This document shows positions 5,936 through 63,834 of a stretch of 64,000 nt of DNA, in pieces. The position numbers were made by a program, and so were the translations under genes. The notes under the pieces were generated by a model. The model did not search any database. It was not told the origin of the DNA and saw only the letters and a program-made list of their open reading frames with translations. The stretch covers positions 93,186,001 through 93,250,000 of the forward strand of contig OX597818.1 in NCBI GenBank assembly GCA_951406725.2, given 5' to 3'. This stretch comes from Octopus vulgaris. Lineage: Eukaryota. Within the stretch, counting starts at the first letter, position 1. Every line of letters begins with the position of its first letter.

Positions 5936-6169
5936 GATTACAGTATAGTCCGTAGTATCCATGGGCATTCAGATGACCATCATCATTGATTCATTTCATC
6001 AGGCATTTCATCAGCTATATTTAATCATATAACTAAATTGGTTTTCATATTGGAAAGAAGATATAACATCCATCTGTGATTCATCCACTAATGCAGTATC
6101 ACCTGATGAAATGAATCAATGATGATGGTCAACCGGATGCCCATGGATACTATGGACTATACTGTAATC
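5936..6169. repeat. Inverted repeat, 68-bp arms (5936-6003 / 6102-6169), probably Penelope-like
   Basis: gattacagtatagtcc...catttcatcagg versus cctgatgaaatg...ggactatactgtaatc; a degenerate hammerhead-like motif follows at 6187-6224. Confidence 0.85.
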
Positions 6170-6396
6170 TCCCAAGGATACAGACTCTGATGTTAAAGTC
6201 ATGTGATTTATGGAAACACGTGTAGCAATGCATTAAATATTTATAAATTGCATCCTAGAATTATTGTTATTATTGTTATTATTATTATTATTATTATTAT
6301 TATCATCATATATATATATATATACACACATATACATATACATGTATATATAAATATATATATATATATACACACACACACGCATATATATATATA

Positions 6397-7655
6397 CACG
6401 GGAGTTTGTACAAAATAATGGAAACACCTAACATCATAGCATCGTAATTTTGAAATATCTATAAAACCATCAAAAGCTTGTTTATTTTTCTGTTTTTTTA
6501 TTTATTTATTATTAGTATTGCTTAATATGTTTTGCTAAAATTGCTGTTTCTTTTCAGATATCATCAAAAAATGGTAATTAAAATTCATCAGACTTTCAAA
6601 GAGGTCAAATTGTTGGTGCTTGTATGGCAGGCACCAGCTTAACAAAAAATGCCGAAATGTCTGGTGTATCAAGAAGTACTGACTCGAAAGTAATGACAGC
6701 CTTTGAGAAAGAGGGAAAAACCTCCTTGTCAAAACAAAACTCCAGAAGAGAATCAAAACTTTTAGATAGGGACCGTTGGACTCTTACACGAATTGTTAGA
6801 AAGGATCACAAAAGTACAGCTCCCAAAATTACTGCTGAGCTTAATGACCACCTCAAGAACCCAGTTTTCACAAAAACTGTTTGCCAGGAGCTACACTAAG
6901 CCAGATTTTGCAGGAGGGCTGCAATCAGAAAACCACTACTTTCAAAAACAAACAGTGTAAAGCATTTAGAGTGGAGTAAAATCCTACAGAATTGGTCCCT
7001 AGAGCAGTGGAAGAATGTTATTTTCTTGGACAAGTTATCCTTTACCTTATTTTCGACCACCGGCTGAGTATACGTATGGAGACATCCAAAAGAAGCATTT
7101 GACCCAGACTGCCTTCTTCCAACTGTTAAACATGGAGGAGGAATTGTGATGAGGGGCACTATATCTTGTAAATCTGCCAGCCCAATGGTTTCCCTTCATG
7201 GCGGAATTAATAGTCAAGACTATTTAAGCATTTTATCAGATCAAATTCATCCTATGGTTGCAGAACTGTTTCTGGAAGGAAATGCAATCTCTCAGGATGA
7301 TAATGCACCAATTCACACAGCTCAAGTTGTTACTGAATGGCACGAGGAACATTCTAGTGAAGTTGAACATCTTATCTGGCCACCACAGTCTCCAGATCTC
7401 AATTTTATTGAACATTTATGGTGCATTTTAGAAAAACAAGTAAGGAGTCGATATCCTCCACCACATCACTACAAGAACTGGAGACTGTTTTAACTGAAGA
7501 ATGGACAAAAATTCCTTTGAAAACAATTCAAACTTTGTACAAGTCCATACCTCATAGAACTTAAGCCGTAATTACTGCCAAAGGTGGTCCTACCCCATAT
7601 TAAAATTAATTTATTTGAAATTTTAAGGTGTTTCCATTATTTTGCCCAACCCCTG
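6397..7655 (+). mobile_element. Full-length decayed Tc1-family (DD34E) DNA transposon
   Basis: TIRs ...caaaataatggaaacacct / aggtgtttccattattttg...cccctg; broken transposase with paired-like HTH (FQRGQIVG), TVKHGGG, QDDNAPIH and WPPQSPDLNFIEHLW; several stops and frameshifts. Confidence 0.95.
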
Positions 7656-8179
7656 CATATAAATATATATATGTATATATGCATGTGTTTTATTTATTAA
7701 TTTATTATATGACGGAACGCACGCATCCATTTTTAAGTAAGATTGTTCTTGATATTAATAATGATGCGCACTCTTAACCTTTCTGAGCCTTCATTCTTTC
7801 TGGTTTCCTTTTCTTCTACCTTACTGTCTCTCCCTCTCTCTCATTCTTCATTCTTTCTGGTTTCCTCACAACCATTCCCTTTTTCTCTCTCCCTTTCTCT
7901 TGCTCCTCCTCCTCCCTCCCATCGTTGACCCGTGACGAGAGCTCTGCTACTGTCTTTCTGACCTGACTTCCTTGAAGTGTGGACGGCATTTTCTGTTGCC
8001 CCTTCACCATTCTCAAAAATAGCGTTCGTAATACTTTTTTTCGTTCGGCTTAACAGCCCTTCTTGTCTTGTTATTCTCCTTGTTCTGTCTTTTACTGTTT
8101 ATATTTTGTACTGTCGTTACTGTCCTGTTTTTGTTACCATTTTTACCCCTCCGCAAAAAGATCTCAAATTTTATTTAAT

Positions 8180-8405
8180 TTGCTTTTCGCGGGAAGGAAA
8201 GTTTCTATTGAAGATGCGTATTGCCTTCACCTTCGAAATGCAGAGTAGATGAAACCATGGTGACTGAAGAAGGGGAATTTTCCTTGTGTTATTTGTCCTG
8301 TACTCTATTTTTTCCTTGTTTAAGAAAAATGTCCAGTTCCTTGGTTTTGTGTTTATATTTTCGTTTCTCATTGTGTTCGACGTTTTTTTGGTGTCCTGTA
8401 CCCAT
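8180..8405 (+). mobile_element. Penelope-like short repeat (CGAAA...CTGAAGA family)
   Basis: Same architecture and 3' end (gtcctgtaccc then TA tract) as the arms at 63516-63834. Confidence 0.55.
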
Positions 8406-9078
8406 ATATGTGTGTATATATGCATGTAGAGGTAGGTACGTACATATATGTATGTATATATGCATATGTTTTATTTATTAATTTATTATATATATATATA
8501 CATACACATATACACATATACATATATATATATATTTACACATATACATGCATGTATGTATATATACATATATAAATATACACATATTCATATATATATA
8601 TATATACACACACACATATACATATATATATGTATGTATATATATGTGTATGTGTGTGTGTTCAATAAGTTTAAAAATGGAGAGATTCAATGGATGCAAA
8701 TTAATTTATTAATTATTCAACATTGCCTACAATTGTTTCACTTCACACCCAATTTAAATTACAAAACATATATTCATATAATAATATAAGTTTGCATTTT
8801 GAGTACCCTGGGTGGAAGATCTTCGGGGCAAAATGGACATTACAGAGTTTACATTTTGATCAGTTGAAATACTCCAACAGACTAAGCAGATGACAGCAGG
8901 TTTATTGTGTGTGTATTTGTGTGTGTGTGTGTGTGTGTGTGTGTGTGTGTGTGGTATGCGCGCACAAGCATTAATATTTTTATCTTTATTTGAATACAAT
9001 AGTAATAATAATAATAATAATAATGAATTAAAGTGTATATATATGTATATATATATATATGTATATATGAAGGAATAC

Positions 9079-61171: not shown

Positions 61172-62314
61172 CACTCATGACAGAAGTAAATAGACACCCT
61201 TATAATAATGAATATTTATCTAAATCTGAAATTATACATTCAAATTATTTATTAATTGTTATAATGCAAATATTTAATACTTAGTTGACATGCCCTTTGC
61301 ATTTTCCAATGCATAGACCCTATTAAGTATGTTACTGATCAGATGATGAATATTCTCTTGCAGAATTTCTTGCCCCAAGTTTCATGCAGTAATCTCAAAA
61401 GATCTGGCTTTTACGAAATGTCCTGCCCATTATGCCTTAGAGGTGTTCAATAGGATTCATATCTGGTGACTGGCTTGGCCATGGAAGCTTTTTAATGCCA
61501 TTCTCACCCAACAAATCTTGGGTCATCCTAGCCATGTGACAAAGAGCACCATCTTCCATAAGTAAAGAGTCTTCTTTTATCATTTCACTAGTGGAGAATA
61601 TTGGAAGTTCTTTCCGTAATATGAACACATATTTATCTGAGTTTATGTTTCCCCCTCACTTCACCAGCTCTGATCAACCATTGCTCCAAATTGTTCCCCA
61701 GACCACCACAGAATAGCTGCTGTATTTCATCGTTGGCTGTAATCTTTTCACATCAAATTCTTATCACAAAGTCTCCAGACCCACACTCAACCACTGTCAA
61801 GAAATACAGCAAATCTGGAGTCATCAGAAAATATGACAGTCCCAAAATGCTAATGGCCTCTCCACCATCTCACTGGCCCAATCATTTTTCTACTGAAACT
61901 GACATTAACTTGTTCTGCAATGTCAGAGGCCTTGCAATGAAGATTATCCTCCACATTTCTCTAAGCTAAAGAAAGATTCTGTCAGAGGGCCCTAGTTGAT
62001 CTGGGCAAGGTGATGTGGACTTCTTCCTCTCTCTCTCTCTGGTGAATTGCACAATCACTCTATTAACTGTAGAAAGTGGGATTCCGAGGCTTTCTGCTAT
62101 TTTATGCAATGTCCACATTCAGAATGACTCACAATATGGCCTCTTTGAAATTCAGGCAGTTCCAAGGCTTCTTTTGTACATGGTATGATTAAACAGTCAT
62201 ATATATAAGCTGAAACATAAAAATGTCATTTAATAAAAAATATAAACTTTTACAAAGTTAGAATAAACATAAAATGAAGTTTTATGGAGTATGTATTTAC
62301 TTCTGTCATGTGTA
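61172..62314 (-). mobile_element. Decayed Tc1-family (DD34E) transposon with both TIRs
   Basis: TIRs catgacagaagtaaata / tatttacttctgtcatg; minus-strand EFQRGHIV...[16 protein letters not shown] and MEDGALCH...WPSQSPDMNPIEHL. Confidence 0.9.
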
Positions 62315-62349
62315 TGTGAGTGTGTGTGTGTGTATATATATATATGTAT

Positions 62350-62739
62350 ACTCTTTACTCTTACTCATTTGACTGTGGCCATGCTGGAGCATCACCTCTT
62401 AGTCGAGCAAATCAACTCCAGGACCTATTCTTTGTAAGTCTAGTACTTATTCTATTGGTCTCTTTTGTTGAACCACTAAGTTACGGGGACGTAAACACAC
62501 TAGCATCGGTTGTCAAGCGATGTTGGGGGGACAAACACAGACACACAAACATATACACACACACACATATATATACGATGGGATTCTTTCAGTTTCCGTC
62601 TACCAAATCCACTCACAAGGCTTTGGTCGGCCTGAGGCTAAAGTAGCAGACACTTGCTGAAGGTGCCATGCAGTGAGACTGAACCCGGAACCATGTGGTT
62701 CGTAAGCAAGCTACTTACCACACAGCCACTCCTACGCCT
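62350..62739 (-). mobile_element. SINE family A, full length
   Basis: Reverse complement of 3136-3560. Confidence 0.9.
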
Positions 62740-63515
62740 ATATATATATAGCTTTGTGATATAAACAGGAAAATAAAACTCAAAACCTGATAGTATACAT
62801 ATTTTTTTATTAATTGCCAAAAAAAAAAAACCAAGTGACTCAAGGTCTGAGATTTTCAAGTATTGACACTTATCCAACTGGTTTCAAAACTTTAGGGATT
62901 GCTTTTGTAGAGATCAACTAAAATGATAAAGTAATTCCATCCAAAGTGTTCTTGGAAAAAAAAAATTATGTAAGCAATATGCATGTATTTGATTTTATCT
63001 TTGCACAGACATCCAATCAAATACTATCTTATTTTCGTTTTCAGAATATTCTTAATGGCATTTTTTTGCTTCATGCCTTCAAATTTCATTCACCAATTGG
63101 AAATGAGAAAATCAGTCATGAAATTTTAAGTTCCATCTTCAATAAATATATCTTGACACTCCACTTTCAATATCAAGTACTATCTCATTTTTTTTTTCAC
63201 TTATGTTCTTATACACACACACACATGCAAATGTATCAACATCATTATCATCATGATCAAGCATGGCTGTGGGGTTGGGTTGGGAATCTTGCATCCTAGT
63301 TCATGTGGTCTTGGTTTCAGTCCTACTGCATGGCACCTGAGGAAAGTGTTTTTTCCTATGGCCCTGTGGGTTTGTGAGTGGATTTAGTTGATGGTAACTG
63401 AAAAAAGCTCATTTGTGTGTGTGTGTGTGTGTGTATATATATATATATATATATATATATATATATATATACACATACATACATACGTACATCTTTTATA
63501 CGTATATGTATATAT

Positions 63516-63834
63516 GGGTACAGGATGTCACAAAATGTAAACAACATGAAATATGAAGACAAACTGCGGTATGCAAACAACAAGAAAAACAAATGGGAAA
63601 CGAGACAAGTAACATAAAGAACGACCCTTCATCAGTTGTCCGCTGTCCATCTGCTCCTCATTTCGAGCAATCATCATTAACTGCTCGAAATGAGGAGCAG
63701 ATGGACAGCTGACAACTGATGAAGGGTCGTTCTTTATGTTACTTGTCTTGTTTTCCATTTGTTTCTCTCATAGTTCGCAGACAAAATCTTGTCTTCGTAT
63801 TTCATGTTACTTACATTTCGTGACGTCCTGTACC
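63516..63834. repeat. Palindrome of a Penelope-like short element, about 150-bp arms
   Basis: Centre tttcgagca-atcatcattaac-tgctcgaaa; extra inverted copy of the left terminus at 63939-63974. Confidence 0.9.

What the first reader, a model, noticed from the sequence alone, without database searches (positions are those of the whole stretch)
5936..63834. Retroelement-derived fold-back palindromes share one polarity
Seen: about a dozen local inverted duplications in 64 kb. In those built from retroelement-like sequence (5936, 9079, 16053, 19817, 28453, 46088, 56748, 63516; by architecture also 18616 and 21562) the left arm is minus-sense and the right arm plus-sense, so 5'-truncated ends meet at the centre and 3' ends point outward. 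One arm is often 3'-truncated. Sense was assigned from hammerhead boxes or the (GAT)n tail. Established: Penelope-like elements often carry a 3'-truncated inverted pLTR at their 5' end. Unusual here: the same geometry appears in RTE-tailed SINEs and extends into flanking DNA. Inference: a general snap-back resolution of retrotransposition or break intermediates that seeds this genome with hairpins.
Basis: partly seen in the sequence, partly recalled or inferred. Interest (0 to 1): 0.7.

Follow-up and report, generated by a model that had tools for sequence, protein, structure and literature searches.

The report
Head-to-head Penelope insertions plus two exceptions
The mirror-image repeats are real and all face the same way, but eight are likely the known back-to-back insertions of Penelope-type jumping genes, likely copied from both ends of a DNA cut at once, one is likely a rare copy that folded back on itself, and one is likely a different, cut-and-paste element.

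Summary
All ten palindromes exist and are 5'-centred. Fold-backs run at about 90 per Mb in a fixed-position 1 Mb genome sample. The polarity is class-specific, not general: 5'- versus 3'-centred neighbours are 24:2 (gap up to 1 kb) in hammerhead/Penelope-type families, 9:3 then balanced in other tRNA SINEs, and 0 fold-backs among 78 GAT-tailed copies. Eight sites are Penelope-type; head-to-head polarity there is published. Their 'truncated' arm is a fixed short end: 47 of 48 clean pairs in one family and 7 of 7 in a young coding family have one long and one short end; the spacer lies on either arm and some arms do not overlap. This fits two cDNAs primed from both target ends, not one snap-back. 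19817 is a true but rare snap-back (4 exact junctions against 3248 normal). At 46088 the 'flank' is part of a multi-copy foldback-type DNA transposon (two fixed GG ends, 8-bp duplications) built round a SINE pair. Read support was not obtained. The scan had noted the long/short-end rule on other DNA of this genome; the foldback family was not in its look-ups.

The parts
5936..6297 (.). Head-to-head pair of a hammerhead family: short left arm 5936-6003 (minus), long right arm to about 6297 (plus)
   Evidence: family has a strict hammerhead in L067
9059..9522 (.). Head-to-head pair; left arm stops at the family's common end, right arm carries about 30-40 nt more; 2-nt microhomology at centre
   Evidence: no type I hammerhead found
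16048..16497 (.). tRNA-headed, (AAT)n, hammerhead element; short left arm (carries the spacer), long right arm
18605..18939 (.). Hammerhead family pair; short left end, long right end about 110 nt further
19817..20053 (.). GAT-tailed SINE folded back at a 4-bp stem, 6-nt loop hairpin; both arms complete
21400..21694 (.). Older pair of the 18616 family; long left arm, short right arm
28281..30077 (.). Two 5'-truncated arms of a young coding Penelope-like element (Hydra-type motifs); left arm at the long end, right arm at the short end, about 170-200 nt apart; (TA)n on both sides
45269..47474 (.). Copy of a foldback-type element: each arm = GAT-tailed SINE + about 500 nt AT-rich + 267-nt tandem units; right terminus at 47474; left terminus lost; centre near 46284
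45415..45678 (+). Later Helitron-like insertion in the left arm (TC...CTAG between A and T, 3' hairpin; label recalled)
   Evidence: sequence
56738..57445 (.). Same family as 16053; short left arm reaching the tRNA head, long right arm; a later tRNA SINE (56948-57189) sits in the spacer
63510..63860 (.). Head-to-head pair of a family with fixed 3' end in TA-rich DNA

Best explanation
The ten palindromes are real and 5'-centred but likely have three origins: eight are likely head-to-head insertions of Penelope-type elements, likely made by priming one cDNA from each end of the cut target, one is likely a rare snap-back of a LINE-tailed SINE cDNA, and one is likely a copy of a foldback DNA transposon. 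Steps for the eight: (1) element or passenger RNA with two 3' start sites (shown as two fixed ends in the genome; two RT start sites shown in vitro for an anole element, PMC11167929); (2) both target strands cut and extended (shown in vitro there; inferred here); (3) one cDNA starts at the long site, the other at the short site, from the same source (inferred from end pairing and arm identity); (4) the two cDNA 3' ends meet and are joined through microhomology, sometimes after a short hairpin-primed extension (inferred from junctions). Both cDNAs are antisense and grow inward, so only 5'-centred palindromes can form.
For: Polarity 11:0 at gap up to 60 and 24:2 up to 1 kb among 153 hammerhead/Penelope-type copies (p 0.001 and 1e-5). 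21 of 29 non-window loci of the 16053 family carry a 5' inverted arm, none a 3' one. End pairing: 34 long+short, 1 long+long, 0 short+short and 13 more long+short in 27 loci; 7 of 7 in the young coding family with both ends visible. Of 47 pairs the long arm reaches further 5' in 15, the short arm in 13, equal in 19. Non-overlapping arms: L284, L205. Coding element with RT, C-terminal GIY-YIG, tandem end repeat and inverted copy. 19817: in the three asymmetric sister loci the loop is on the arm with the intact tail. 46088: 17 of 23 loci share the unit, 16 of 17 have an inverted arm; one A end and one B end in 7 pairs; flanking 8-mers match 8, 8, 7, 6, 6, 4, 0 of 8 against 0 of 682 perfect cross-locus matches; same centre junction in 4 of 21 loci.
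Against: Arms of young events are nearly identical (2 substitutions in 3198 sites against 0.4-1.3% to other copies), and older arms share 27 minority bases against 14 expected (distance 7.7% versus 8.7%, p 0.06): equally what copying one cDNA or later gene conversion gives. Most of the 47 pairs were picked by a long-ended query, so short+short pairs could not appear there; only 11-13 pairs are free of that bias. The rule is noisier in the 18616 family (automatic calls: 6 long+short, 3 short+short, 2 long+long, 3 other 5'-centred, 2 3'-centred). No hammerhead in the 9079 and 63516 families; no coding partner found for five of the six non-coding families. Pfam and PDB gave no hit for the ORFs. 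For the foldback family, A and B arms form no separate clades, no transposase was found, and Penelope insertions can also have 8-10 bp duplications (PMC3846280).
Confidence: 0.68

Rival explanations
1. Self-priming or snap-back makes a hairpin intermediate that the element's endonuclease then resolves with staggered cuts, giving one end with and one without the tail (the published suggestions for Penelope).
For: Self-priming is proposed in PMC3846280 and endonuclease resolution of the tail in PMC8557442 (passages). Near-identical arms. Short perfect hairpins at centres: 28453 and the head of the 16053 family. L280 has both long ends and about 70 nt of mirrored flank.
Against: Spacer on the short arm in 13 pairs and on the long arm in 15; arms that do not overlap (L284, L205); in vitro the tail equals the distance between two RT start sites (PMC11167929).
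Confidence: 0.2
2. One reading: a general snap-back resolution of retrotransposition or break intermediates, common to all element classes.
For: Four exact snap-back junctions in the GAT-tailed SINE; one 95%-identical tRNA SINE fold-back centred just upstream of its head (L093); 9:3 excess at gap up to 60 in tRNA SINEs (p 0.15); snap-back is published for R2 (PMC11371274) and L1 ends (bioRxiv 2024.12.14.628481).
Against: 0 of 78 GAT-tailed copies; about 0.1% at the hot spot; most tRNA SINE pairs have unmatched inner ends; the 46088 flank is element sequence.
Confidence: 0.07
3. Chance adjacency of independent copies, or chimeric reads and assembly error.
For: Fits most tRNA SINE pairs (balanced beyond 60 nt). 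No read bridging a centre was obtained.
Against: One-sided polarity; family-specific ends on both arms; arms 1-13% diverged at the older sites tested; even the near-perfect 28453 stops at two different family ends instead of mirroring the flank.
Confidence: 0.03

Closest known systems
Inverted 5' pLTR and tail of Penelope-like elements (PMC3846280 passages; PMC8557442 passages and section 11)
   Same: Head-to-head inverted copy, tail at one end only, hammerheads, (TA)n targets; head-to-head stated there to be the usual form; 28453 element has Hydra-type motifs.
   Different: Counts here (long/short pairing, spacer side, non-overlap); tails from about 30 to about 200 nt; a tRNA-headed short family of tens of thousands of copies (37,535 first-look candidates).
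Poseidon element PAc in vitro (PMC11167929, parts 1-2 of 4 read)
   Same: Two RT start sites equal to the tail; both strands cut and extended; predicted dimer.
   Different: That text does not derive inverted insertions from it; the link to head-to-head pairs is my inference.
L1 twin priming and L1-end inverted duplications (bioRxiv 10.1101/2024.12.14.628481, passages)
   Same: Both target ends can prime cDNA; hairpin-primed inverted duplications with 2-bp microhomology.
   Different: Here arms usually overlap and start at two fixed sites.
R2 snap-back junctions (PMC11371274, passages)
   Same: cDNA 3' end primes on itself before joining; matches 19817.
   Different: Seen here as fixed genomic copies at one recurring hairpin of a LINE-tailed SINE.
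Foldback transposons such as Tetris (PMC4079207, passages) and Merlin (PMC8101967, passages)
   Same: Long inverted arms with tandem repeats, no ORF, 8-bp duplication; GG ends as in Merlin.
   Different: Inner domain is a head-to-head SINE pair; arms of about 1.1-1.3 kb exceed the 24-462 bp given for Merlin; transposase unknown.

Membership tests
Penelope-like elements (28453 family) | RT plus C-terminal GIY-YIG endonuclease in one coding region | tested here: met
   L267 frames 2638-4056 and 4184-5518 (broken between them) show RT and GIY-YIG-type motifs by eye; Atlas neighbours are RT proteins at 0.93-0.96; Pfam and PDB blank
Penelope-like elements (28453 family) | Tandem pLTR, inverted 5' copy, tail at one end | tested here: met
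Hydra clade of PLEs | RWK-like motif, DKT, CxCX5C linker, (TA)n targets | tested here: met
   RWR, DKT, CNCRNKNKC read against section 11 of PMC8557442; (TA)n flanks
Hydra clade of PLEs | Placement in an RT phylogeny | not tested
   no reference set at hand
PLE ends or passengers (16053/56748, 18616/21562, 5936) | Type I hammerhead on the sense strand | tested here: met
   19 of 29, 5 of 10, and L067; none on minus; Rfam listed no hammerhead among rows shown
PLE ends or passengers (9079, 63516) | Type I hammerhead on the sense strand | tested here: not met
   0 of 19 and 0 of 14 with my descriptor; filed as 'works like' only
PLE ends or passengers (16053/56748) | Coding partner sharing the 3' end | tested here: inconclusive
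   a 54-codon frame runs through hammerhead and tail; longest open frame 236 aa among 150 scored of 37,535 candidates; no shared downstream sequence
PLE ends or passengers | Self-cleavage and mobilisation by the PLE protein | not testable with these tools
   needs bench work
RTE-tailed SINE (19817) | 3' end shared with a LINE of the RTE clade | tested here: inconclusive
   tail follows a LINE ORF end on the same strand at most tblastn loci; 'RTE' rests on a recalled C-terminal motif
Foldback DNA transposon (46088) | Long inverted arms with tandem repeats, no ORF | tested here: met
Foldback DNA transposon (46088) | Fixed termini and target duplication | tested here: met
   5 of 7 pairs match at 6-8 of 8
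Merlin superfamily (46088) | GG termini and 8-9 bp duplication | tested here: met
Merlin superfamily (46088) | TIR of 24-462 bp | tested here: not met
   arms about 1.1-1.3 kb; not filed as Merlin
Merlin superfamily (46088) | IS1595-type transposase with the same ends | not tested

The most novel reading that the evidence does not exclude
Penelope-type elements insert as a dimer that primes both target ends from two fixed RNA sites on the same source, which explains tail and head-to-head polarity in one step and has seeded an octopus-like genome with tens of thousands of hairpin loci, among them a tRNA-promoter passenger; separately, a head-to-head SINE pair became the core of a foldback DNA transposon.
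Probability: 0.45. Interest if true: 0.6.

Novelty: new member of a known kind. Interest (0 to 1): 0.4.

Why it matters
How Penelope-like elements form their inverted copies is called unresolved in PMC8557442. The counts here give a direct prediction (one long end, one short end, both target ends needed) that the existing in vitro system can test. The result also removes a tempting general claim: hairpin density in this genome tracks Penelope-type families, not all retroelements. The foldback family shows that a SINE at a palindrome centre can be one ancestral event copied many times.

Tried and rejected
Read support: contigs of four runs on 45400-46900 and three contig sets plus one raw run on 28290-30070 were swamped by other repeat copies; no listed piece bridged a centre; inconclusive. 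Orientation by propagating hammerhead labels through all-versus-all hits leaked between families and was dropped for natural oriented references (11 hammerhead-anchored references removed as chimeric or redundant and those without support or strict match left out, before counting). Rfam gave no hammerhead at gathering score and only hairpin look-alikes in the 150 of 365 rows shown. Pfam and PDB did not recognise the ORFs. Early idea that centres sit in hammerhead stem II: not borne out. Idea that 46088 is a late DNA-level fold-back of an old SINE (5 of 7 rare bases shared): replaced once sister loci appeared. A two-ended RNA model for the 46088 family was weighed and judged less likely because neither end type occurs inside the arms. 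One search failed through a script slip; searches replaced it. About half of the 100 central palindromes could not be oriented and are outside the polarity counts.
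Full report
Setting. The window is G000:C5:93186001-93250000 of a 2.8 Gb animal genome. Its repeats look octopus-like (recalled; earlier scan notes say the same). It is AT-rich with many microsatellites.

Observation. Masked self-BLAST recovers the ten named palindromes and three more. 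In 100 stretches of 10 kb taken at fixed positions there are 90 central fold-backs, against 0 in 400 kb of shuffled and 6 in 400 kb of block-permuted sequence. All ten window sites are minus-then-plus. Sense is supported by hammerheads for 5936, 16053, 56748, 18616 and 21562, by an ORF for 28453, by the LINE tail for 19817 and 46088, and only by fixed ends and one downstream RT homologue for 9079 and 63516.

Polarity by class. With natural copies as oriented references, 5'-centred versus 3'-centred neighbours in the 1 Mb sample were: hammerhead/Penelope-type, 153 copies, 11:0 (gap up to 60), 2:1, 7:1, 4:0 (to 1 kb); other tRNA SINEs, 496 pieces, 9:3, 2:4, 9:14, 11:11; GAT-tailed, 78 copies, 0:0 up to 200 nt and balanced beyond. 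Binomial p: 0.001, 1e-5 (24:2) and 0.15 (9:3). Inspected tRNA SINE pairs mostly have unmatched inner ends; one (L093) is a 95% fold-back. Roughly half of the palindromes found could not be oriented.

The eight Penelope-type sites. The 28453 arms map to the 3' region of a coding element with RT, C-terminal GIY-YIG, tandem end repeat and inverted copy; its motifs match the Hydra clade as described in section 11 of PMC8557442, Atlas neighbours are RT proteins, Pfam and PDB are blank. Its copies end at one of two places; all 7 inverted pairs with both ends visible have one of each. The 16053/56748 family is a tRNA-like head, (AAT)n and a hammerhead body; 21 of 29 other loci have a 5' inverted arm and none a 3' one. 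Ends are bimodal; pairs are 34 long+short, 1 long+long, 0 short+short, with 3 partial pairs in L233 set aside, plus 13 long+short among 27 further loci. Of these 47, 34 came from long-ended queries. The arm reaching further 5' is the long one in 15, the short one in 13, neither in 19; in L284 the arms do not overlap. The 18616 family has two ends about 110 nt apart and a non-overlapping case (L205), but automatic pairing is mixed (6 long+short, 3 short+short, 2 long+long, 5 other), partly through tandem units and diverged subfamilies. In the 9079 family 3 of 3 pairs have unequal ends.

Mechanism. A fold-back copy cannot hold sequence that its template arm lacks at both the inner and the outer end, nor fail to overlap it. 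Two antisense cDNAs, one from each target end, can; both grow inward, which fixes the polarity. PMC11167929 (parts 1-2 of 4 read) shows two RT start sites equal to the tail, cutting and extension of both strands, and a predicted dimer; applying this to inverted pairs is my inference. Against a simple two-RNA picture, young arms differ by 2 of 3198 sites versus 0.4-1.3% to other copies, and older arms share 27 minority bases versus 14 expected, so both cDNAs likely come from one source, or arms were homogenised. Short hairpin-primed extensions at centres suggest snap-back often starts the joining step. L280 (both long ends, about 70 nt mirrored flank) is a full snap-back. PMC3846280 (passages) already states that head-to-head is the usual form and proposes self-priming; PMC8557442 (passages) calls the mechanism undefined.

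19817. The same junction, at a 4-bp stem with 6-nt loop, occurs at 4 places including the window against 3248 ordinary copies of that stretch; the patterns cover one site and one subfamily only. In the three asymmetric loci the loop is on the arm with the intact tail, as snap-back predicts and as described for R2 (PMC11371274, passages). The 14-nt mirrored flank is weak evidence.

46088. The 23 closest loci show that 17 carry the same downstream unit and 16 of those an inverted arm. The element is about 1.4-2.6 kb: SINE, AT-rich stretch and 267-nt tandem units on each side, two distinct GG-starting termini paired one with the other in 7 loci, flanking 8-mers matching 8, 8, 7, 6, 6, 4 and 0 of 8 (a doubtful eighth pair 2; no perfect match among 682 cross-locus controls), and one shared centre in 4 of 21 loci. 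No hammerhead was found. A and B arms differ only near the tips, and same-locus arms are closer (8.5% versus 11-13%). This fits a foldback DNA transposon like Tetris (PMC4079207, passages) with Merlin-like ends (PMC8101967, passages); the transposase is unknown, and a Penelope-driven origin is not excluded. In the window the left arm is split by a Helitron-like piece and has lost its tip.

Artefact. Read checks were inconclusive. Family-specific ends, diverged arms and recurrence at independent loci make an artefact unlikely.

Literature reach. Searches. Also seen: part 1 of 5 of bioRxiv 10.64898/2026.07.22.740005; passages of PMC4209133, PMC13282606, PMC4758252, bioRxiv 10.1101/2024.12.14.628481. 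I found no paper counting end pairing, describing a tRNA-headed Penelope passenger, or a SINE-cored foldback family; no supplement, Repbase or Dfam was seen. Earlier scan notes report the long/short rule and the tRNA-headed family on other DNA of this genome; one holds that the latter is the end repeat of a coding element, which I could neither confirm nor refute.

Verdict. Real, mostly known Penelope anatomy with a testable mechanistic refinement; the general snap-back claim fails.

Noticed in passing
window 1655-2898: An inverted copy of about 430 nt of neighbouring low-copy DNA sits inside a tRNA SINE, replacing about 12 nt; inner 200 nt identical, outer part about 90%. Looks like a templated insertion with later conversion.
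   Followed up: partly
L272-L286: Full-length copies of the 16053 family start with a small self-complementary tip and often carry 10-25 nt of mirrored head, a likely snap-back hot spot at the RNA 5' end.
   Followed up: partly
window 54877-55070: Full-length U2 snRNA-like sequence, 160.6 bits; gene or pseudogene not determined.
   Followed up: no
window 34450-34593: Open exon-like frame ending at a GT donor with a weak SH3 match below cutoff.
   Followed up: partly
window 6346-7705: Inverted ends around a decayed Tc1/mariner-like region (label recalled).
   Followed up: no
window 51766-51903 and 26225-26834: Palindromes with no other copy in about 1.9 Mb held; origin and sense unknown.
   Followed up: partly
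L231:1955-3151: RT 45% identical to the L267 RT lies 300 nt downstream of a 63516-family end on the same strand; possibly that family's coding partner.
   Followed up: partly
L093:8552-8877: tRNA SINE fold-back, 95% identical, centred about 14 nt upstream of the SINE head.
   Followed up: partly
window 11590-12795: LINE ORF C-terminal remnant followed by a GAT-type tail.
   Followed up: yes
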